Notes under the pieces: model-generated | What the model was told of the DNA's origin: nothing | Seen by the model: the letters and a program-made list of their open reading frames with translations, nothing else | Database searches by the model: none | Virus record (IMG/VR): IMGVR_UViG_3300032250_000269 | Coordinates: 89,069-99,415 of that record | Direction: 5' to 3' (one strand) | DNA from: a virus | Taxonomy: Duplodnaviria; Heunggongvirae; Uroviricota; Caudoviricetes | DNA length: 10,347 nt | Shown: positions 10 to 10,329 of the stretch, piece by piece | How positions within the stretch are numbered: position 1 is the stretch's first letter | Layout: the number at the start of each line of letters is the position of its first letter | Position numbers and translations under genes: made by a program

Positions 10-627
10 ATGCCCACGGGATACACCGCTGATATTGAAAATGATATTTCGTTTGAAGATTTTATTCTAGGATGTGCACGTGCTTTTGGTGCAACAATGC
101 ATCAGCGTGACGATAACATGAAGGATAAGCCAAAGCTTCGTGACACTGAGAACAGCTATCATGTTGATGCACTTTTAGAAGCAAAGAAGAAGGTTGCTGA
201 GCTTGAATCCATGAAGGGTGTGAATGATCGCACTGCTTATGGTAAGAAGGTCATTGAAGAAGAAACTGCTTCAAGTCAAAAATATTTCAACTCAAAGATC
301 AGCCTAAGAAACAAGTATGAAGCTATGCTTCAGAAAGCATATAGCTGGAATCCACCAACACCCGATCATGACAATCTCAAGCAGTTTATGATTGAACAAA
401 TCACCTCATCAATCAACTTCGATTGCGACACCAAGTATACTATGGAACGTCTTACTGAGCTTAGCAAGGCTAAGCCCCTTGATAAGTATAATGATGATTT
501 GCGCCTTGCATACAAGGATGTAGAGTATCATGAGACTGAACTTATGAAAGAACGTGAACGTAATGTAGGTGCCAATAAGTGGATTTCTGCACTATATGAT
601 TCGCTAGGAATTGAATACGATAATTAA
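10..627 (+). CDS. Phage hypothetical protein (205 aa)
   Basis: Long ORF ending TAA. The N-terminus MPTGYTA..I....F..F...CARAFGA resembles a recurring phage hypothetical family, but I cannot assign a function. Confidence 0.8.
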
Positions 628-637
628 TGGAGAGTGT

Positions 638-1519
638 ATGAAAGGCATTATCATGGCCGCTGGTAACGGGACAAGGTTGTATCCCGCTACTCTAAGCATT
701 TCAAAACAACTACTTCCGGTATATGATAAGCCAATGATCTATTACCCGCTTGCTACACTCATGCAAGCGGGTATTAGTGATATTCTAATCATCGTCATGC
801 CACGTGACAAGATTGCATTCCAGAACCTTCTAGGTGATGGTTCGCAGTATGGTATTAAGATCACATATGCAGAACAAGAAATTCCTGCTGGTATTGCTGA
901 AGCATTTTTGATTGGCGAAGAGTTTATTGGAGGTGATGATGTTGCCTTGATTCTTGGTGATAATATTTACCATGGTAATGGGCTATGGGATAAGTTACAA
1001 ACTGCCCGTTGTTTTCCTCTTGGTAAATCAACCGTGTTTGCTTATCATGTTGATGATCCAGAACGCTATGGTGTTGTTGGTTTTGACAAAAAAGGTCGCC
1101 CAAACTCTATCGTTGAGAAGCCATCAAAGCCTAAGTCAAATTGGGCTGTAACTGGTCTGTACTTCTACACCAATGATGTTGTAGATATCGCAAAATCGAT
1201 TGAACCTTCTGCTCGTGGTGAGCTTGAAATTACAGATGTTAATCAAATTTTCCTTGATTATTCACAATTGCGTGTAGAAAAGCTTGGATATGGTTATGCA
1301 TGGCTTGATACTGGAACACACGAAAGTCTTTTGGAAGCTAGCTCGTTCGTTGGTACGATTGAACGTAGGCAAGGAATGAAGATTGCTTGTCTTGAAGAAA
1401 TTGCTTACAATAATGGATGGATGAGCCAAGAACAAGTAATTCAACGTGCCCAAATGTTCATCAAGACTGATTATGGCGCATATCTAATGAAGAAAGTAAA
1501 TCAAAATGACTTCTTTTGA
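638..1519 (+). CDS. rmlA: Glucose-1-phosphate thymidylyltransferase (293 aa)
   Basis: Motifs [54 protein letters not shown] and [17 protein letters not shown] 638 follows GGAG at 629-632 and is preferred over the upstream TTG 611 in the ORF track. Confidence 0.96.
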
Positions 1520-2036
1520 ACGTATGAACATACCAGATGTAATTAAAATTATCCCTGATCAACATGTAGATAATAGAGGTATATTCTCTGAAGTATATGT
1601 TGATCATCTCACCATGCCTCGTTGGTTTCAGGATAATCAGAGTATTTCATATAAGGCTGGTACAGTTCGTGGTCTTCATTATCAACGTGGAGTATACGCA
1701 CAGGCAAAGTTGGTTCGTTGTGTATATGGATCAATTATTGATGTTGCAGTTGATATTCGTCCAGACTCGCCAACATATGGAAAACATGTTGCAGAAATTC
1801 TGTCATCGGTTAATGGTTCTCAGCTATTAATTCCAAAAGGATTTGCTCACGGATTTATGACATTGACAGATAATGCTATTGTATTATATAAGGTAGATAA
1901 TGTCTATCATAAGGATAGCGAAGCGGCCATTCGCTGGAATGATCCTGACTTGGATATTGGATGGAACTATCTAAAGGCAACAGCAATCTCTGATAAGGAT
2001 GCAGCCGCACCATTTTTCAAGGATATCATACTATGA
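1506..2036 (+). CDS. rmlC: dTDP-4-dehydrorhamnose 3,5-epimerase
   Basis: Cupin RmlC motifs [22 protein letters not shown] (catalytic His), [31 protein letters not shown] and IRWNDP. Overlaps the rmlA stop. Confidence 0.96.
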
Positions 2037-3052
2037 TTAAATATAAGTTTTTAGTTACTGGTGGTGCTGGTTTTATTGGTTCTGCTGTATGTCGTATGCT
2101 TATTGAGCAAGGACATTATGTTGTATGCTATGACAAACTAACATATGCTGGTAATATGAATTCACTTCGTAGTATTGCAGAAAATGAAAGATTTCATTTT
2201 GTTCATGGCGATATTTCTAACGAAAATCTTGTTGCCGAAACACTCAACAAGTATGAGATTGATATATGCATGAACTTGGCTGCTGAAAGTCATGTTGATC
2301 GTTCAATCGACAATCCATTTGCTTTCATCGATACTAATGTATTTGGCACATATAAGCTTCTTGAAGCATGTTTGAATTATTGGAAGTATAGAAACAATAT
2401 TTTTGTTTTTCATCATATTTCAACTGATGAAGTATTTGGCGATCTACCATTTGACAATAGCGTATTCACAGAAACCACTGCATATGCTCCTAGTTCACCA
2501 TATTCTGCTTCTAAGGCTTCTTCTGACCACTTTGTAAGAGCATGGCACGAAACATATGGCCTTCCTGTTATAGTAACAAACTGTTCAAATAACTATGGAC
2601 CATATCACTTTCCTGAGAAGCTTATACCATTAACAATTCTTAATGCTTTGCAACAAAAACCACTTCCTGTATATGGAAATGGTGGTAATGTTCGTGATTG
2701 GCTTTATGTGTATGATCATGCAAGAGCACTTATTTTAGTAGCAACTGAAGGTGTAATTGGTCATACATATTGCATCGGTGGTCGTGAGGAACGTACTAAT
2801 ATACAGGTGGTAGAAGCCATTTGTGATATTGTTGATTATCATATAGGCAATCCTCTTGAAAGTCGTCATCTTATTACTTTTGTAAAGGATAGGCCCGGTC
2901 ATGATCGTCGTTATGCTATTGATCCTTCAAAGATTGAACATGATCTTGGTTGGAAGGCACAGGAAACATTTGATAGTGGTTTAGAAAAGACTGTGCTATG
3001 GTACATTCAAAATAAATGGTGGTGGTCGCAAATTGAGACCTCAAATAAGTGA
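2033..3052 (+). CDS. rmlB: dTDP-glucose 4,6-dehydratase
   Basis: Rossmann [40 protein letters not shown] (YxxxK), [14 protein letters not shown] and [16 protein letters not shown] overlap with rmlC. Confidence 0.96.
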
Positions 3053-4296: not shown

Positions 4297-5343
4297 ATGA
4301 TTAAGTTTCCTAGCGTAGATCAGTTTCGTAACGTGATTCGTCACGTACAGACGCATACACGTTATGCTGGTAAGGATGAGAACGGTGAAGCAATTTATGA
4401 TGCTTCTCGCCCACTTCCTACACTGAAGTTTCGTGGCACTGTAAAGCTTCATGGTACTAATGCTGGTATCGTGTATGATAATGCGACTGATTCAATCACG
4501 TATCAGTCACGTGAGCGTGTGTTGTCACTTACTCAAGACAACGCTGGCTTCATGCTGAACATGATGAACCATGAAGATAAGCTTCTCAAGGCATTTCGCA
4601 CCATGGCTTTTAATCACACTCCCGATCTTGATAAGATTGCGGTGTTTGGTGAGTGGTGTGGACAGGGAATTCAAAAGGGAGTTGCTGTAAGCGAACTTCC
4701 TAAGATGTTTGTTGTATTTGCTATCAAGTTTACATTCACTGATGGTTATTTTGAGTGGGTTGACATTGAAGGCGATGAGATTGAAGGTACAACAATCCCT
4801 AACATGTTTTACATCGATGATTTTCCAACATGGGAAATTGATGTTGACTTCAAGTATCCTGAGATTGCTCAGAACGAGATGATCAAGATCACTGAAGCGG
4901 TCGAAGCTGAATGTCCTGTTGGTAAGCACTTTGGTGTTTCTGGTATTGGTGAAGGTGTTGTATGGGCCTGTATCAGTGAAGGATGGGAGGATAACTCTGG
5001 AACTTGGTTCAAGGTCAAGGGTGAGAAGCATTCTGTTTCAAAGGTGAAGACACTTGCTGCCGTTGACATTGAAGCTGTCGAAAACATGCGTGAGTTTGTT
5101 AAGAGTGTGGTAACTGAAGCACGACTTGAACAAGGTCTTGACAACCTAGTACGTGAGCAGCTAAAGCCTTTTGAAATGACAAGCATGGGTGACTTCATTC
5201 GTTGGATATACAACGATGTACTCAAGGAAGAAATGGACACTATCATCGCTAACCAAATCGATCCTAAAAAGCTGGGTGGCGCTGTTGCTAACGAAGCACG
5301 TCCTTGGTTCATCAAGAAGTTTAATGAAGGTGTAGGTCTTTAA
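4297..5343 (+). CDS. rnl2: RNA ligase, Rnl2 family (348 aa)
   Basis: Nucleotidyltransferase motifs: I KLHGTN (Rnl2-type KxHGxN), III FGEWCG, IIIa VFAI, IV GEGVVW, V FKVK. SD AAAGG upstream. Confidence 0.85.
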   Translation: MIKFPSVDQFRNVIRHVQTHTRYAGKDENGEAIYDASRPLPTLKFRGTVKLHGTNAGIVYDNATDSITYQSRERVLSLTQDNAGFMLNMMNHEDKLLKAFRTMAFNHTPDLDKIAVFGEWCGQGIQKGVAVSELPKMFVVFAIKFTFTDGYFEWVDIEGDEIEGTTIPNMFYIDDFPTWEIDVDFKYPEIAQNEMIKITEAVEAECPVGKHFGVSGIGEGVVWACISEGWEDNSGTWFKVKGEKHSVSKVKTLAAVDIEAVENMREFVKSVVTEARLEQGLDNLVREQLKPFEMTSMGDFIRWIYNDVLKEEMDTIIANQIDPKKLGGAVANEARPWFIKKFNEGVGL

Positions 5344-5534: not shown

Positions 5535-5610
5535 GCTCTCTTAGCTCAGTGGTTAGAGTAAGACTCTCTAAAAGTCATGGTCGTGGGTTCGAATCCCACA
5601 GAGAGCACCA
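5535..5610 (+). tRNA. Amber suppressor tRNA, anticodon CUA
   Basis: Acceptor stem GCTCTCT/AGAGAGC, A73 and encoded CCA (5608-5610). D arm GCTC-AGTGGTTA-GAGT. Anticodon stem (A)GACT/AGTC(A) with loop CT-CTA-AA (anticodon 5568-5570). Short variable loop TGGTC. T arm GTGGG-TTCGAAT-CCCAC. Confidence 0.93.
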
Positions 5611-5627: not shown

Positions 5628-5816
5628 ATGAGTTTTTTTGAATATATCAGGTCACGAGAACTTTATAAATATCATAGCGAAGGAGCTAGTCCTTGGCCAT
5701 CTAACATACAGGTTATTTTTGCAGAAAAATTATTGCAAAAATGTAAAAAAATGGAAGAACAATTTCCTGTATTTCCAGAAATGTATGATAAATATCTTAG
5801 AGACAAATATGTATGA
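5628..5816 (+). CDS. Small hypothetical protein (62 aa)
   Basis: SD AGGA at 5617-5620, 7 nt before the ATG. Ends TGA. Confidence 0.65.
   Translation: MSFFEYIRSRELYKYHSEGASPWPSNIQVIFAEKLLQKCKKMEEQFPVFPEMYDKYLRDKYV
5664..5671 (+). promoter_or_regulatory. Possible T4-type late promoter TATAAATA inside ORF 5628-5816
   Basis: Perfect match to the gp55 late consensus, with a variant GATAAATA at 5787-5794. Chance matches are plausible in AT-rich DNA. Confidence 0.35.
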
Positions 5817-5956
5817 CAGATATGAGTTCGTACACAAGTAACAGAGTTTTCGAAGGTAAGCGTGTTATTACTGACGAACAAGCCAAAAGGCACCGTGAAA
5901 GGCTCAAAAGAGCATTAGATAGAAGGAAGAATGATATGAGCACTGAAACTATGTAG
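5813..5956 (+). CDS. Small basic ORF (47 aa) ending in amber TAG; an internal SD could yield a 6-aa leader MSTETM (5936-5956)
   Basis: Read by hand: MTDMSSYTSNRVFEGKRVITDEQAKRHRERLKRALDRRKNDMSTETM*. ATGA overlap with the upstream gene. AAGGA 5923-5927 lies 8 nt before ATG 5936. Confidence 0.6.
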   Translation: MTDMSSYTSNRVFEGKRVITDEQAKRHRERLKRALDRRKNDMSTETM

Positions 5957-5977
5957 CCGTATGACGCAATAGGACCA

Positions 5978-6027
5978 CCTTGTGGTTTAATAAGACCAAA
6001 CACAAAAATCTTATTAAAACACAAAGG
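5978..6027 (+). promoter_or_regulatory. RBS-sequestering hairpin in front of the gene at 6037
   Basis: CCTTGTG-G-TTTAATAAGA (5978-5995) pairs with TCTTATTAAA-A-CACAAAGG (6009-6027), about 17 bp. It covers most of the SD AAAGGA (6023-6028). Confidence 0.7.
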
Positions 6028-6036
6028 AATTCTATT

Positions 6037-6420
6037 ATGACAAATTTTATTAATACATTTAAGGCTAAAGCTCACTCAAAGAATCTAACATGTGCAGACA
6101 TGATTGCTCTATGCATCTATCGCACAGTCAAAGCTAAGTCAGAAGACAAAGAAACAATCCTTAAGTATTTTCTAACAAAATCATTTTCTGCTGGCAAGGT
6201 ATGTGCTCATAGGCAGTATCCTTATCAGTCAATCATCAATGCGATGTATAACTTCAACCATAGACTTCGTGGTGGTAGAATTTGGATGGATAATGCGTGG
6301 AAGCAAACCAGTGGTATTGTTCTTGGTGTCGAAGTAACTGAAGTTTTGACAGAAGAAGAACTGTTGAAGTTTCGTGAACTAGCTGCTATGATTACTCCTG
6401 ATTTTGTAAAGGCACTTTGA
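6037..6420 (+). CDS. Hypothetical protein (127 aa), upstream partner of the Pth2-like gene
   Basis: ATG 6037 with SD AAAGGA at 6023-6028, preferred over TTG 5980. Only 1 nt separates it from the next gene. Confidence 0.85.
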   Translation: MTNFINTFKAKAHSKNLTCADMIALCIYRTVKAKSEDKETILKYFLTKSFSAGKVCAHRQYPYQSIINAMYNFNHRLRGGRIWMDNAWKQTSGIVLGVEVTEVLTEEELLKFRELAAMITPDFVKAL

Positions 6421-6421
6421 T

Positions 6422-6793
6422 ATGAGACATTACGCATACTTTTTCACTCGCCAAGATATTTCTCCTGAATATCAAGTAGTACAGACAGCACATGCCGCAT
6501 TCCAGCTTGGGGTAAACTCCCAACGCTGGATTGACTCTCCACCACCAAAACAGCAAGTGATGGATGATGTTAAGGCTGAGAACACCAACTACTTCACTGT
6601 AGTTGGTGTTCGCAATCTTGACGCACTTCTTGCTGTGTCTACAATCCTTGACAAGTTTAATTTCAAGTATGAAGTTTTTCGTGAGGATGATCTTAACGGA
6701 GAACCAACTTCGATTGCAGTATATCCTATCGAAGATATTGCTAGAGGACCACTACTAGCATTTAACCTTCTCAAGATCGATAAAAAGAGTTGA
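6422..6793 (+). CDS. Peptidyl-tRNA hydrolase type II (Pth2)-like protein
   Basis: PTH2-family pattern: YFFTRQDIS..YQVVQTAHAA (cf. vvRxDL....xAQxxHA), central VVGV, then VFREDDL..EPTSIAVYP and a C-terminal R....LL. Confidence 0.7.
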   Translation: MRHYAYFFTRQDISPEYQVVQTAHAAFQLGVNSQRWIDSPPPKQQVMDDVKAENTNYFTVVGVRNLDALLAVSTILDKFNFKYEVFREDDLNGEPTSIAVYPIEDIARGPLLAFNLLKIDKKS

Positions 6794-6810
6794 CTTGAGA
6801 AGCGAATCAT

Positions 6811-6818
6811 ACTAAATA
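6811..6818 (+). promoter_or_regulatory. Late-promoter variant ACTAAATA directly upstream of the tmRNA gene
   Basis: 6/8 match to TATAAATA, located immediately before the first paired segment of the tmRNA precursor. Confidence 0.5.
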
Positions 6819-6820
6819 GA

Positions 6821-7136
6821 GTTATCAGTTGTTGACAATCAACAATAAAGGTCTAGAGGACACGGGGGCAGTACCCGTCACCTCCACCATCTACTTAGTA
6901 AGAACTGAGAGGGTATCTCAGACAAGCAATGTAGCTAATTGTTTCGGGGGTTACTTGCTAGGTAGTTGATGGGGGTGAACTAGGATCGACTTGGACGGAA
7001 TAGGAAGATCGAGACTGATTGACTGGCAAAGTGCCACAAAACGTAAATGCAAACGATAACAACGCATATGGAGCTTTTGCGCTAGCCGCATAAGTAATCG
7101 GGGGTCCGGTGGGTACCTAGCAACAGAAACCCACCA
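6821..7136 (+). ncRNA. ssrA: Circularly permuted two-piece tmRNA, alphaproteobacterial type
   Basis: Acceptor piece about 6821-6889 has T arm ACGGG-GGCAGTA-CCCGT and ends CACCTCC-A-CCA. Intervening segment 6890-6970. Coding piece begins GGGGGTG (6971-6977), giving an acceptor stem with G3:U70 alanine identity, followed by AACTAGGATCGAC. Resume context TAAAT-GCA. Tag ANDNNAYGAFALAA* at 7049-7093. Terminal hairpin GGTGGGT/ACCCACC (7108-7135). The pieces pair via TTGGAC/GTCTAG and ACTGAT/ATCAGT. Confidence 0.95.
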
Positions 7137-7160
7137 CTTTATTATGGGATGTGATTTGAC

Positions 7161-7625
7161 ATGAAACCTTATTTTGTTGGTATGGGATTTATTCCTATTT
7201 TGATCTTTGCACATTTTTTTATGCCACCATGGTTCTTTATGATAGTAGCATTTTCTATGCTATTCTTTTTTTGTCAGATGGCGGCTAATCATAAAGAACC
7301 AGTATTTGAGTGGCCTGAATTGTCGTTTTCTCAAAATGACAAAACTATCATCCTTACCATGTCAACCAAAGATGGTAAGAGTATTGATAGATATCTTTCT
7401 ATCAACCGCCTTAACCTTCCTAAAACAGTTGTTGAAAAGACCGTAGAAAAAACCACATCATCTATCTGGCACGTGCTTGGTATGATGCCTACGACTGATA
7501 GGAACGCTGTAGAGAAGGCATTTCGTAAAATGTCTATGGTATATCATCCTGATACTGGTGGTACGACTAGTGCTTTTAATGCGCTTGTGGAAGCAAAAGA
7601 AAAGGCACTACAGAAGTGTAGGTAA
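7161..7625 (+). CDS. Membrane-anchored J-domain (DnaJ-like) protein
   Basis: Hydrophobic N-terminus (about residues 4-37). C-terminal WHVLG...AFRKMSMVYHPDTGG...FNALVEAKEKAL carries the HPD motif. Confidence 0.85.
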   Translation: MKPYFVGMGFIPILIFAHFFMPPWFFMIVAFSMLFFFCQMAANHKEPVFEWPELSFSQNDKTIILTMSTKDGKSIDRYLSINRLNLPKTVVEKTVEKTTSSIWHVLGMMPTTDRNAVEKAFRKMSMVYHPDTGGTTSAFNALVEAKEKALQKCR

Positions 7626-8652: not shown

Positions 8653-8946
8653 TTTCTATAGGAGGTAGTCTACCTCCATTACCATTACAACAGCTTCAAG
8701 TCCTTATGTGGCTAAGAAAGCGTTTATGTCAAAAATAGCATAAAATCCCTTTATGCGAAAAACAACATAAACACCGACGAAAACACTAATGATTTTGCAT
8801 TCCTAGTAATGGAGGGATGGATGTAGAAGATACCGATTTTTATTTTCATTGTATCTTCTCATGAATTATTGATAGTAGGCGTTGAGATACGCTATAACGC
8901 TTTCAGTAGTTCCAAAGTCATTAATTGACGAGAATACAAATGACTT
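8653..8946 (+). ncRNA. Candidate structured 5' leader RNA of the SleB-gp33-gp59 operon
   Basis: About 290 nt with no convincing gene and many stems: GGAGGTA/TACCTCC, GCATAAA/TTTATGC, CCTCCATTAC/GTAATGGAGG, AGAAGATAC/GTATCTTCT, GCGTT/AACGC and AAGTCATT/AATGACTT. Confidence 0.55.
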
Positions 8947-9491
8947 ACTTAACAAAAAATAAAAAATATACTTTAAAAAACATAGTGATTACATTTTTTA
9001 TTATGGTATCAATTGTTGCAGCAGCAATATCAACTCCTGCAAAACCATCACCAACAGTAGAAAGTTCTAGACAAGTAGAACAAAATACTGTACAGAACAA
9101 AAGAATTACACCGTATGACGAAAGTCAGATAAATTGTCTAGCCCGAAATGCATATTTTGAGGCAGGAAATCAATCTGAAAGAGGCATGATTGCTGTTACG
9201 AGTGTAGTTATGAACCGTACTAAGGATAGTAGGTTTCCAGACACACCATGTGCTGTTATTAGACAGAAAAACCATGGTGTATGTCAATTTTCTTGGGTCT
9301 GCCAAGGTAAAAACAAAATCCGTGATGCAGATATGTTTAGAAGAGCACGAGCAGCCGCAGAGCGTGTCTATCTAAATAAAGTGTACGATGTAACACACGG
9401 CGGATTATTTTATCATGCAAAATATGTTCATCCTAGATGGAATTTAACACAGGTTGCCAGTATTGGCGCACATATATTTTATAGAGGATAG
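8940..9491 (+). CDS. SleB/CwlJ-family (Hydrolase_2) cell-wall hydrolase with N-terminal signal or anchor; ends in TAG
   Basis: CLARNAYFEAGNQ (catalytic Glu), AVTSVVMNR....RFPDTPCAVI, CQFSW, LFYHA.YV.P.W and IGAHIFY. Hydrophobic IVITFFIMVSIVAAAI. The start is ATG 8940 or the in-frame TTG 8925. Confidence 0.92.
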   Translation: MTYLTKNKKYTLKNIVITFFIMVSIVAAAISTPAKPSPTVESSRQVEQNTVQNKRITPYDESQINCLARNAYFEAGNQSERGMIAVTSVVMNRTKDSRFPDTPCAVIRQKNHGVCQFSWVCQGKNKIRDADMFRRARAAAERVYLNKVYDVTHGGLFYHAKYVHPRWNLTQVASIGAHIFYRG

Positions 9492-9494
9492 TTG

Positions 9495-9737
9495 ATGAGT
9501 GAATTAAAGTTAGCCAAAGCGATTAATACAGACAGATTTTTTAAAGAAATTGATTCTTTAGTTAAGAAACATAGACTGAGTTATATTGACGCTATAGTCT
9601 TTTTCTGTGAAAAGAACGAGATTGAAATAGAAACCGCTGCTGCAATGATCGCTGGCAACTATAGAATGAAGTCATCACTACAAACAGAAGGCGAAGAGCT
9701 TCATTTTCTGCCAAGGTCTGCTAAGCTTCCTATCTAA
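9495..9737 (+). CDS. gp33: T4 gp33-like late transcription co-activator
   Basis: F..EID..V......YIDAIVFFCEKNEIEIE...L...E.EELHFL....KLPI pattern. Conserved 33-59 gene order. SD GAGGA at 9484-9488. Confidence 0.88.
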   Translation: MSELKLAKAINTDRFFKEIDSLVKKHRLSYIDAIVFFCEKNEIEIETAAAMIAGNYRMKSSLQTEGEELHFLPRSAKLPI

Positions 9738-9753
9738 CTAATAGGATTATATT

Positions 9754-10329
9754 ATGACTGGTTTTGAAGCCTACAAGATGTACTTGGGGATTAAGTCGCA
9801 CTTCGCCAATAATACTTATAGTTATGTAAAATATCAAGGTAATGTTAGAGCAAACGAGCATTCGTTTAATAAAAGAAATGATAGATATTTCTTTGAAAAA
9901 TTATCAAAACAACCCGATCTATTGAACTTTCTTGTTGCAAATTTTCTAGAAGGTGATATATGGGTACGTGATTTGTTCAATGACGAATCACAAGAAAGAT
10001 ATGCTAACTGGCAACGAAGAGTTCAGTCATTATCATATAACTTTCAAAATGAGCTATCCCAAATCTCTGAAGATTTTAAAGGCTATTTTGTTGTCAATAG
10101 CGGACAACACCCAAAACTACTAAAACAATTTCGTCATGGTAATATCAGCATTGAAACGCTGACTATTCTTAATGACCTAATCAACTTCTTCCCATATTGG
10201 GATAAGAAGATTTCAGACAATATCATTTGGCCAAAAACCAGAGACAAATGTCTGAATTACAGTGAGTTTATCAAATATGATAAATCTAAAATGAAGAAGA
10301 TTATCAAAGATATACTTGCTGATCAGTAA
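9754..10329 (+). CDS. gp59: T4 gp59-like helicase loader
   Basis: MTGFEAYKMYLGIKSHF...YSYVKYQG, F.KRNDRYFFEKLS and ISIETL.IL...F.YWDK.I patterns. Follows gp33. Confidence 0.92.
   Translation: MTGFEAYKMYLGIKSHFANNTYSYVKYQGNVRANEHSFNKRNDRYFFEKLSKQPDLLNFLVANFLEGDIWVRDLFNDESQERYANWQRRVQSLSYNFQNELSQISEDFKGYFVVNSGQHPKLLKQFRHGNISIETLTILNDLINFFPYWDKKISDNIIWPKTRDKCLNYSEFIKYDKSKMKKIIKDILADQ

What the first reader, a model, noticed from the sequence alone, without database searches (positions are those of the whole stretch)
5535..5610. Amber-suppressor tRNA (CUA) in a phage region that is not recoded
Seen: an intact cloverleaf with a canonical C32-U33-CUA-A37-A38 loop and encoded CCA, a 27:43 A-A mismatch, a G10:U25 pair, G1-C72/C2-G71/U3-A70 and A73. 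Of 20 gene-ending stops I counted, 10 are TAA, 8 TGA and 2 TAG. No large gene needs TAG as a sense codon. Established: phages that reassign TAG often carry such tRNAs and place TAG in late or lysis genes. Inference: here the tRNA is more likely a regulatory partial suppressor than part of a full code change. The charged amino acid cannot be read from the sequence.
Basis: partly seen in the sequence, partly recalled or inferred. Interest (0 to 1): 0.85.

Follow-up and report, generated by a model that had tools for sequence, protein, structure and literature searches.

The report
Phage amber-suppressor tRNA with built-in switch
A T4-like phage that uses the normal genetic code carries a genuine tRNA that reads the UAG stop codon, and in every relative found the tRNA sits beside a short leader ending in UAG, placed so that reading through it should unmask the start of an operon containing a peptidyl-tRNA-hydrolase-like gene; this gives such puzzling tRNAs a concrete, testable target.

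Summary

The phage is not recoded. Reading TAG as sense gains no coding density in this 99-kb contig (56% complete), in sister contig G001, whose tail and baseplate genes are intact, or in a complete 199-kb relative.

The tRNA is conserved in at least 12 lineages, with compensatory stem changes and an invariant anticodon loop.

The main result is a linked cassette. About 340 nt downstream (40-200 nt in relatives) lies an SD-ATG leader of 6-10 variable codons ending in TAG (5954-5956), followed by a near-invariant block. The block's 3' half pairs with the SD and AUG of the next gene. All 16 cassettes found follow a tRNA-CUA, including 5 of 5 loci chosen only by the downstream gene. The gated operon is an unknown 127-aa protein plus a Pth2-fold protein, next to a phage tmRNA.

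My best reading (about 0.6) is a suppressor tRNA with an amber-gated translational switch. Expression, charging and the inserted amino acid are untested.

The scan has also noted similar amber switches in other phages. I found no publication describing one.

The parts
5535..5610 (+). tRNA with anticodon CUA (amber suppressor), CCA encoded
   Evidence: ARAGORN; Rfam RF00005 68.8 bits, E 1.1e-13. Orthologues occur in at least 12 lineages with compensatory stem changes, an invariant loop CUCUAAA, G1-C72, C2-G71, U31-A39 and a non-Watson-Crick 27:43 pair.
5813..5956 (+). 47-aa ORF ending in TAG; its last six codons double as the leader of the switch
   Evidence: ORF list. The G001 orthologue is about 50% identical and ends in TAG at the homologous position.
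5923..5927 (+). Shine-Dalgarno (AAGGA) of the short leader
   Evidence: Read from the sequence. An SD at proper spacing before an in-frame ATG is present in all 11 distinct lineages.
5936..5953 (+). Leader mini-ORF (MSTETM), in frame with the TAG
   Evidence: Leaders are 6-10 codons, variable in sequence and always in frame with the TAG: MTNKDGGSAF, MIKEGWGGTK, MIKEGYVD, MTNEGIGG, MTNEGVGG, MTNEGHSG, MxMEQMPGG.
5954..5956 (+). Conserved amber codon, the proposed site of action of the tRNA
   Evidence: TAG is present in 16 of 16 cassettes, each downstream of a tRNA-CUA on the same strand.
5954..5980 (+). Conserved 27-nt block TAG CCG TAT GAC GCA ATA GGN CCN CCT
   Evidence: The first 20 nt are identical in 11 contigs. 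Gene-anchored relatives keep TAG CCG TAT and vary further on.
5957..6040 (+). Read-through frame (27 codons) ending at TGA 6038-6040, which overlaps the ATG of the next gene (ATGA)
   Evidence: In relatives the frame always covers at least the 8 block codons. After that it stops at once, runs to the next start, or fuses in frame (L141).
5968..5984 (+). 5' arms of the masking helices: AAUAGGA (5968-5974) and CCUUGUG (5978-5984)
   Evidence: Folds; pair counts on alignment A3.
5987..6017 (+). Central hairpin (9-10 bp)
   Evidence: Present at the same place with four unrelated sequences in the window group, G001, L138 and clade B.
6020..6036 (+). 3' arms of the masking helices: the SD of gene 6037 (AAGGA, 6024-6028) and UUCUAUU just before its AUG
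   Evidence: The block change AAUAG to AGUAG/GGUAG is matched by CUAUU to CUACU in L139 and L140.
6037..6420 (+). Gated gene 1: 127-aa protein of unknown function
   Evidence: 53 homologue clusters, none annotated. AF2 pLDDT 92.8. No credible fold match.
6422..6793 (+). Gated gene 2: 123-aa protein with the Pth2 (peptidyl-tRNA hydrolase 2) fold; its start is one base after the stop of gene 1
   Evidence: Pfam PTH2 only at E 0.022, below the cut-off. The AF2 model (pLDDT 77) matches 13 Pth2/Bit1 structures at TM 0.62-0.72, E down to 1.6e-5.
6791..7184 (+). Permuted (two-piece) alpha-type tmRNA, tag ANDNNAYGAFALAA
   Evidence: ARAGORN; Rfam alpha_tmRNA 120 bits. A tmRNA lies beside the tRNA-CUA in G001, L120-122, L134, L135, L138, L139, L141 and L142.

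Best explanation
The gene at 5535-5610 encodes a functional amber-suppressor tRNA of a standard-code, T4-like phage, probably one that infects an alphaproteobacterium. It does not serve a changed genetic code. It works together with a cis element that travels with it: a short leader ORF ending in UAG, followed by a conserved block.

Proposed mechanism:
- The 3' half of the block (the Ile-Gly-Pro-Pro codons) base-pairs with the Shine-Dalgarno sequence and start-codon flank of the next gene, closing over a central hairpin.
- A ribosome released at the UAG stops about 13 nt short of this helix and leaves it closed.
- A ribosome that inserts an amino acid at the UAG translates through the helix arm and opens it. 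In this window it then terminates on the ATGA overlap with the next start codon.
- The downstream operon (a 127-aa unknown protein and a Pth2-fold protein, next to the phage tmRNA) is therefore translated in proportion to suppressor activity.

What is shown: the tRNA, its conservation, the standard code, the linkage, the in-frame leaders and the conserved pairing. What is inferred: that the tRNA is charged, that it reads this UAG, and that read-through raises downstream translation.

A plausible logic, also inferred, is that nonsense suppression drives ribosomes into 3' ends and raises peptidyl-tRNA drop-off, so the phage couples rescue functions to the suppressor. The amino acid is unknown. 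Lys is my best guess, from the single-base difference from the phage's own tRNA-Lys(CUU) loop and the shared weak 27:43 pair.
For: The tRNA is real.

Twelve orthologues keep G1-C72, C2-G71, the loop CUCUAAA, U31-A39 and CCA, while their stems change in a compensatory way.

The code is standard.

The G000 and G001 leaders both end in TAG, followed by the same 8 codons. The only difference is a synonymous GGA/GGT, and both read-through frames end on ATGA of the next gene.

A search with the 17-nt core that excludes the TAG found 20 contigs. Ten have TAG, a tRNA-CUA and an SD-leader. The other ten have none of these and unrelated flanks.

An independent sample anchored on the gated gene gave 5 of 5 loci with tRNA-CUA, leader-TAG, block variant, hairpin and SD-ATG.

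Leaders vary in length and sequence but are always in frame with the TAG and preceded by an SD.

The TAG-to-AUG distance is 78-89 nt in all 11 lineages, although clades A and B gate unrelated genes.

Folding with a ribosome parked at the UAG gives the same three-helix structure in six lineages (-17 to -20 kcal/mol). Holding the block open raises the unpaired probability of SD plus AUG from 0.45-0.56 to 0.65-0.82.

On alignment A3, 89.7% of cells pair, against 30-55% when partners are slid. Three pairs change on both sides. The covariation score is 0.183 against 0.100 +/- 0.02, reached by 0 of 500 shuffles.

Gated gene 2 has the Pth2 fold.

Suppression by suppressor tRNAs is an established source of non-stop ribosome complexes handled by tmRNA (PMC8012679, citing Ueda 2002).

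TAG stops are about threefold depleted in G000 and G001 (7 of 196) against related phages of similar GC (51 of 475), p = 0.002.
Against:
- The TAG is part of a block conserved as a whole, so its conservation is not independent of the block. Bases 4-14 of the block are conserved for reasons I cannot explain.
- The predicted masking is partial: 3-6 of 9 SD/AUG bases pair with the block, and the accessibility shift is modest. Free-RNA minimum-energy folds in clade B sometimes choose other pairings.
- TAG depletion is confined to the window's own lineage. Other cassette-bearing loci have 8.6% TAG stops against 12.2% baseline, p = 0.30. An efficient suppressor would therefore extend many of their proteins.
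- G002 and many other large phages carry a tRNA-CUA without this cassette, so the cassette cannot be the only reason such tRNAs exist.
- The lineages are related, so the 16 of 16 count overstates the number of independent events.
- The function of gated gene 1 is unknown.
Confidence: 0.6

Rival explanations
1. The tRNA is a working suppressor with a general or unknown role, such as tolerance of amber mutations, an evolutionary step towards TAG recoding, or disturbance of host or competitor termination. The neighbouring leader-TAG cassette would then be an ordinary upstream ORF whose stop merely happens to be TAG, and the masking helix would be opened by some other signal.
For: Standard-code phages with suppressor tRNAs and depleted TAG or TGA stops are described as likely precursors of recoding (bioRxiv 10.1101/2021.08.26.457843). 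XacN1 has CUA tRNAs with no identifiable target (PMC5852040). Many large phages, including G002, have a tRNA-CUA without the cassette. TAG is depleted in G000 and G001. The TAG is embedded in a block conserved as a unit.
Against: The cassette is linked to a tRNA-CUA in 16 of 16 cases, including a sample chosen without reference to the tRNA or the block. TAG is the rarest stop here (2-12%), yet it is the only stop ever seen at this leader. The helix begins just beyond the footprint of a ribosome at the TAG, and the read-through frame always spans its 5' arm.
Confidence: 0.22
2. The phage is in fact TAG-recoded (code 15-like) in genes that lie in the unseen 44% of its genome, and the tRNA serves that recoding.
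For: The contig is 56% complete. It starts inside the DNA polymerase gene and lacks the core capsid and tail module. Recoded phages concentrate in-frame TAGs in late genes.
Against: Sister contig G001 has the orthologous tRNA and cassette, and its tail-fibre and baseplate genes are intact under code 11, with full-length profile matches. The endolysin and a virion structural protein in G000 are intact. The complete relative G002 fits code 11. No RF2 gene was found, only a stand-alone GGQ protein.
Confidence: 0.04
3. The tRNA-like gene does not act as an amber suppressor. It could be a decoy or target mimic for a tRNA-directed host nuclease. It could be a relic. Or its C34 could be modified (for example to lysidine, like the similar CAU tRNA) so that it reads another codon such as UAA.
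For: It lies beside an Rnl2-type RNA ligase, which suggests a tRNA-damage and repair context. Its closest paralogue in the genome is a tRNA(CAU) with a similar acceptor stem, at 79% identity.
Against: The anticodon CUA and the whole loop are invariant in 12 lineages, while the stems drift with compensation. That is the pattern of a decoding tRNA. A relic would decay. A UAA reader would hit about 65% of the phage's own stops. The linked cassette carries UAG, not another codon.
Confidence: 0.06

Closest known systems
tRNA-Sup(CUA) genes of standard-code large phages, e.g. Xanthomonas jumbo phage XacN1 (PMC5852040)
   Same: A canonical CUA tRNA within a large phage tRNA set. The phage uses TAG as an ordinary stop. 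Read-through of the annotated amber stops reveals no extended homology; here the endolysin's TAG is likewise not conserved.
   Different: For XacN1 no target could be named. Here a conserved amber-ended leader with an SD-masking helix is physically linked to the tRNA in every relative found.
Suppressor tRNAs of TAG-recoded ('code 15') phages such as crAss-like, Lak and Agate, and their standard-code relatives (Borges et al., bioRxiv 10.1101/2021.08.26.457843)
   Same: A phage-encoded CUA tRNA. TAG is rare as a stop in a low-GC phage (2-4% here). The idea that stop-codon decoding is used to time gene expression is shared.
   Different: There are no in-frame TAGs in protein bodies. The tRNA is not Gln-like in build (G1-C72, with N73 either A or G). 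No RF2 gene is present. Control would act through one leader codon and an RNA helix, not through recoded late genes.
Leader-peptide translational control through SD-masking hairpins (ermC-type attenuation; translational coupling by unmasking, as in RNA phage MS2). Recalled from general knowledge.
   Same: A short upstream ORF with its own SD. The position of the ribosome in the leader decides whether a helix that hides the next gene's SD and AUG is open.
   Different: The deciding event would be stop-codon read-through by a dedicated tRNA encoded next door, not drug- or amino-acid-dependent stalling or ordinary upstream translation.
Engineered UAG switches in leader peptides (reviewed in PMC6412442)
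   Same: A TAG placed in a leader makes downstream expression depend on a tRNA-CUA.
   Different: Those are synthetic, act on transcription attenuators (trp, tna) and use orthogonal synthetase pairs. This one is natural, acts on translation and is phage-borne.
Programmed stop-codon read-through in phage Qbeta (A1 protein). Recalled from general knowledge.
   Same: A phage uses low-level read-through of a stop codon to make a second product.
   Different: Qbeta relies on host near-cognate tRNA at UGA, and the extension is itself the functional product. Here the tRNA is phage-encoded, and the extension peptide is not conserved beyond the 8 block codons.

Membership tests
tRNA (Rfam RF00005), amber-suppressor class | Cloverleaf with canonical D, anticodon and T arms that scores above the family threshold | tested here: met
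   68.8 bits against a gathering score of 29; ARAGORN.
tRNA (Rfam RF00005), amber-suppressor class | 7-nt anticodon loop with U33, anticodon CUA and a purine at position 37 | tested here: met
   The loop CUCUAAA is invariant in 12 orthologues.
tRNA (Rfam RF00005), amber-suppressor class | Maintained by selection: compensatory stem changes among relatives | tested here: met
   Pairs 3:70, 5:68, 6:67 and 7:66 and the anticodon stem change on both sides.
tRNA (Rfam RF00005), amber-suppressor class | Aminoacylated, and inserts an amino acid at UAG | not testable with these tools
   Needs a charging assay, a reporter or mass spectrometry.
tRNA-Pyl (the ARAGORN label) | The atypical PylT build (very small D loop without G18G19, short variable loop, no T-psi-C consensus), as recalled from general knowledge | tested here: not met
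   The D loop AGUGGUUA has GG, the variable loop is 5 nt and the T loop is UUCGAAU. ARAGORN gives this label to any CUA anticodon.
TAG-recoded (code 15) phage system | Many conserved genes interrupted by in-frame TAG; coding density recovers when TAG is read as sense | tested here: not met
   Density is 0.858 against 0.859 in G000, with no gain in G001 or G002 beyond the TGA and TAA controls. No in-frame TAG occurs in the 20 window genes. G001's late genes are intact.
TAG-recoded (code 15) phage system | Accessory code-change genes (RF2, a cognate synthetase) | tested here: not met
   The RF-1 domain search finds only a 122-aa stand-alone GGQ protein in G000 and nothing in G001 or G002. Synthetases were not searched.
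Leader-ORF / SD-masking translational switch | A short ORF with its own SD upstream of the regulated gene | tested here: met
   SD plus an in-frame ATG in 11 of 11 distinct lineages.
Leader-ORF / SD-masking translational switch | A conserved helix that pairs the regulated gene's SD and AUG with leader-proximal sequence | tested here: met
   Same architecture in six lineages; 89.7% paired against 30-55% for slid controls; covariation above all 500 shuffles.
Leader-ORF / SD-masking translational switch | Downstream translation changes with the ribosome's fate in the leader | not testable with these tools
   Only thermodynamic modelling was possible. A reporter assay is needed.
Pth2 (peptidyl-tRNA hydrolase 2) for gene 6422-6793 | Sequence match above the Pfam PF01981 threshold | tested here: not met
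   15.4 bits against a cut-off of 23, E 0.022.
Pth2 (peptidyl-tRNA hydrolase 2) for gene 6422-6793 | The Pth2 fold | tested here: met
   The top 13 Foldseek hits are all Pth2 or Bit1 structures, TM 0.62-0.72, probability 1.00. Model pLDDT is 77.
Pth2 (peptidyl-tRNA hydrolase 2) for gene 6422-6793 | Catalytic residues and hydrolase activity | not tested
   Active-site residues were not mapped.

The most novel reading that the evidence does not exclude
The tRNA-CUA, the amber-ended leader and the SD-masking helix form a self-contained natural 'suppression sensor'. This portable module makes translation of a ribosome-rescue operon (a Pth2-fold protein plus an unknown partner, beside a phage tmRNA) conditional on the activity of the phage's own suppressor tRNA. 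It is conserved across a whole clade of T4-like phages of alphaproteobacteria. It would be the first described natural riboregulator whose input is stop-codon read-through by a dedicated tRNA, and it would explain why standard-code phages keep amber suppressors.
Probability: 0.5. Interest if true: 0.88.

Novelty: new variant of a known kind. Interest (0 to 1): 0.8.

Why it matters
CUA tRNAs in phages that use the ordinary genetic code are a recognised puzzle. The XacN1 authors searched for targets and found none. The recoding literature treats such tRNAs as possible way-stations to a new code.

Here the tRNA comes with a conserved, precisely placed UAG in a leader that is wired by RNA pairing to the next gene's ribosome-binding site. 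That turns the open question of what these tRNAs are for into a bench experiment with clear on and off predictions.

If the switch works, three things follow:
- It is a natural counterpart of the engineered amber switches used in synthetic biology.
- It links nonsense suppression to ribosome-rescue functions (tmRNA, Pth2, a GGQ factor) in a phage.
- It offers a compact, portable control element.

Tried and rejected
1. Endolysin-gp33 read-through fusion. The window's endolysin ends in TAG and is in frame with gp33, but the stop is TGA in G001 and TAA in G002. I reject it as a coincidence of frame.

2. It is present only in the window and G001. The same, otherwise conserved sequence reads ATG-TTG in L139 and L121. 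Not supported.

3. The +1-frame mini-ORF ATG-ACG-CAA-TAG inside the block. Its ATG is lost in L138, L141 and L142, so it is not the conserved feature.

4. Genome-wide TAG avoidance as a general correlate of the cassette. It holds only for G000 and G001.

5. A first cross-genome tblastn screen for alignments spanning in-frame stops was swamped by off-frame matches. One rerun used an invalid option and wrongly returned 'no homolog' for everything. One search corrected it.

6. RNAalifold on a MAFFT alignment of both clades gave a meaningless consensus, because the 3' halves were misaligned. I replaced it with per-lineage folds and pair counts on a better alignment.

7. Ancestry of the tRNA. Its D arm excludes the phage's short Leu type. 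The nearest paralogue is a tRNA(CAU) at 79%, and its loop is one base from tRNA-Lys(CUU). No firm assignment is possible. The G002 suppressor has a different, Gln/Glu-like build and may be of separate origin.

8. Function of the 127-aa gated protein. There were no Pfam, NCBIfam or PHROG hits, no Atlas lead, no Foldseek match in the PDB or AFDB clusters, and a best VIA-align Z of only 5.1.

9. A megablast of the window against the phage collection found nothing. An exact search for the tRNA body with a free anticodon found nothing.

11. The closest isolate, Caulobacter phage Cr30, has five tRNAs, none of them CUA, no tmRNA and neither gated gene.

Full report
WHAT IS THERE

ARAGORN finds one tRNA in the window, at 5535-5610 on the + strand, with anticodon CTA. 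Rfam's tRNA model scores it at 68.8 bits, E = 1.1e-13. ARAGORN's 'Pyl' label only reflects the anticodon. The D loop has G18G19 and the T loop is UUCGAAU, so this is an ordinary elongator-type tRNA.

CONTEXT

The window is the last 10.3 kb of a single 99,415-bp viral contig with 37.9% GC, rated 56% complete. It is a T4-like phage. It has the gp33 late-transcription coactivator (9495-9737), the gp59 helicase loader (9754-10329), an Rnl2-type RNA ligase (4297-5343), a SleB-type endolysin (8940-9491), and DNA polymerase, helicase and ribonucleotide reductase genes elsewhere. The contig carries 29 tRNAs and a permuted, alpha-type tmRNA at window 6791-7184. I did not test that.

NOT RECODED

With a simple longest-ORF caller, coding density is 0.858 under code 11 and 0.859 with TAG as sense. 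The TGA and TAA controls behave the same way. Sister contig G001 (78 kb; RNA ligase 75% identical) and the complete 198.6-kb relative G002 show no gain specific to TAG.

The window's contig lacks the core capsid and tail module, so I checked G001, which has the orthologous tRNA. Its 1,565-aa tail fibre and its baseplate wedge genes are intact under code 11, with full-length profile matches. No release factor is encoded. There is only a 122-aa stand-alone GGQ protein, closest to PrfH/ArfB-type rescue factors.

THE tRNA IS UNDER SELECTION

G001 has the same order of genes: ligase, tRNA-CUA, tmRNA. Across 12 orthologues the loop CUCUAAA, G1-C72, C2-G71, U31-A39 and CCA never change, and pair 27:43 is always non-Watson-Crick. 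Acceptor and anticodon stems change on both sides.

The amino acid cannot be assigned. The D arm excludes the phage's own peculiar short tRNA-Leu type. The nearest paralogue is a tRNA(CAU) at 79%. The loop differs from that of the phage's tRNA-Lys(CUU) only at position 36. Lys is a guess, not a result. G002's CUA tRNA has a different, Gln/Glu-like build.

STOP-CODON USE

TAG ends 2 of 142 to 4 of 170 + strand ORFs in G000. With one caller applied to all genomes, G000 plus G001 have 7 of 196 TAG stops. Related phages at 35-42% GC have 51 of 475, and Cr30, which has no suppressor, has 17 of 181. Fisher's p is 0.002 for the first comparison. This depletion is specific to the lineage. Other cassette-bearing loci pool to 8.6% against 12.2%, p = 0.30, and G002 uses TAG for about a fifth of its stops.

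WHICH TAGs MATTER

I compared the few TAG-terminated ORFs of G000 and G001. The endolysin's TAG, which is in frame with gp33, is TGA in G001 and TAA in G002, so I reject that read-through. One site is conserved. The 47-aa ORF 5813-5956 and its G001 orthologue both end in TAG at the same position. After the TAG, 8 codons are identical apart from a synonymous GGA/GGT. The frame stays open for 27 and 26 codons, and it ends in both at a TGA overlapping the ATG of the next gene.

THE CASSETTE

The block TAG CCG TAT GAC GCA ATA GGN CCN CCT occurs in five more viral contigs, each time downstream of a tRNA-CUA. That pattern allowed only third-position variation, so I repeated the search with the 17-nt core that excludes the TAG. 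Of 20 contigs, ten have TAG directly before the core, and all ten have a tRNA-CUA immediately upstream and an SD-ATG leader. The other ten have no TAG, no tRNA and unrelated flanks.

In every lineage an SD and an in-frame ATG open a leader of 6-10 codons whose sequence varies. In this window the leader (SD 5923-5927, ATG 5936) is also the C-terminus of ORF 5813.

For a sample independent of both the block and the tRNA, I took homologues of the downstream 127-aa protein and fetched their contigs. All five loci with DNA show tRNA-CUA, leader-TAG, a block variant, a hairpin and the SD-ATG of the gene. Four of the five have a permuted tmRNA upstream. In these variants TAG CCG TAT is unchanged, later codons change (some non-synonymously), and the +1-frame ATG inside the block is lost in three.

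THE RNA STRUCTURE

Folding shows that the block's 3' half forms the 5' arm of a long-range helix. AAUAGG pairs with CUAUU at the downstream start codon. The Pro-Pro codons (CCU/UCCU) pair with the SD (AGG/AGGA). Both enclose a 9-11-bp hairpin.

With a ribosome modelled at the UAG, all six tested lineages adopt this structure (-17 to -20 kcal/mol). Holding the block open raises the mean unpaired probability of SD plus AUG from 0.45-0.56 to 0.65-0.82. The central hairpin has four unrelated sequences across lineages.

Where the block has AGUAG or GGUAG instead of AAUAG, the partner is CUACU instead of CUAUU. On a seven-lineage alignment, 89.7% of cells pair against 30-55% for slid partners, three pairs change on both sides, and no shuffle out of 500 reaches the covariation score.

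The TAG-to-AUG distance is 78-89 nt everywhere, although clade A gates the 127-aa gene and clade B gates an unrelated gene of about 122 aa. The read-through frame always covers at least the eight block codons. After that it stops at once, runs to the next start, or fuses in frame. What is conserved is traversal of the helix arm, not a peptide.

WHAT IS GATED

- Gene 6037-6420 (127 aa) folds confidently (pLDDT 92.8) but has no family or fold match.
- Gene 6422-6793 starts one base after the stop of the first gene. It misses the Pfam PTH2 threshold, but its model matches 13 Pth2/Bit1 structures at TM 0.62-0.72.
- The tmRNA follows.

It is established that suppressor tRNAs create non-stop ribosome complexes that tmRNA must clear (PMC8012679, citing Ueda 2002). 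Coupling rescue functions to suppressor activity is therefore a coherent logic, but it is my inference.

COMPARISON WITH WHAT IS KNOWN

- CUA tRNAs in standard-code large phages are published, with no known target (XacN1, PMC5852040).
- Suppressor tRNAs in standard-code relatives of recoded phages are discussed as steps towards recoding.
- Engineered UAG leaders exist (PMC6412442).
- I found no paper describing a natural amber-ended leader linked to a phage suppressor tRNA.
Those notes are unchecked, and their architecture differs (TAG inside the gene rather than a leader with a masking helix).

LIMITS

Everything functional is inferred. I had no expression or charging data. The masking is partial in the models. 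The lineages are related. Bases 4-14 of the block are conserved without explanation. Other phages keep CUA tRNAs without this cassette.

VERDICT

The reading 'regulatory suppressor, not a code change' is supported in silico. The novelty lies in the linked switch.

Noticed in passing
window 6791-7184 (+): A permuted two-piece alpha-type tmRNA (Rfam 120 bits, tag ANDNNAYGAFALAA) in a phage. A tmRNA lies beside the tRNA-CUA in most relatives, upstream of the tRNA in clade B and L138-L142 and downstream of the gated operon in the window and G001. G002 has one directly upstream of its endolysin.
   Followed up: partly
G000 genome 68984-69060, 75858-75934 and 84135-84212 (outside the window); also G001 and G002: Every tRNA with a Leu anticodon in these phages is only 76-78 nt long. 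They have no long variable arm, a 3-bp D stem and an 11-nt D loop, whereas bacterial tRNA-Leu is normally a long-arm (class II) tRNA.
   Followed up: no
G000 genome 27591-27959 (L143:592-960): A 122-aa stand-alone GGQ-domain protein, closest to release factor H, C12orf65 and ArfB-type rescue factors, with no codon-recognition domain. It is a third ribosome-rescue-type gene in this phage.
   Followed up: partly
window about 8770-8840 (+): A non-coding stretch upstream of the endolysin is conserved almost base for base in G001, L139 and L121, and partly in L140. It may be a regulatory element or a small RNA. The ATG-TAG inside it is not conserved (ATG-TTG in L139 and L121).
   Followed up: partly
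window 8940-9491 and 9495-9737: The SleB-type endolysin, which has an N-terminal membrane segment, ends in TAG and is in frame with the gp33 gene. The arrangement is a coincidence, because the stop is TGA in G001 and TAA in G002.
   Followed up: yes
window 6037-6420: The 127-aa protein has 53 homologue clusters and a confident predicted fold (pLDDT 92.8), but no detectable structural or sequence relative of known function.
   Followed up: yes
window 611-3052: The phage carries rmlA, rmlC and rmlB-like genes (glucose-1-phosphate nucleotidyltransferase, dTDP-4-dehydrorhamnose 3,5-epimerase and a dTDP-glucose 4,6-dehydratase-type enzyme), which is a dTDP-sugar pathway cassette.
   Followed up: no
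window 7161-7625: A 154-aa protein with hydrophobic N-terminal segments and a C-terminal J-domain match just below the Pfam threshold (27.4 against 27.8 bits). It is conserved in G001.
   Followed up: no
L078 3403-3570 (G004, a 358-kb phage with terminal repeats): Two different tRNA-CUA genes lie in tandem in a complete jumbo phage genome. That genome also has a stand-alone RF-1-domain ORF and a sub-threshold alpha-tmRNA match.
   Followed up: no
L121, L123, L138-L142 (downstream of the cassette): A conserved 470-aa DUF2828/DUF7788 protein, often followed by a vWA protein, lies between the gated operon and the endolysin in relatives but is absent from the window.
   Followed up: no
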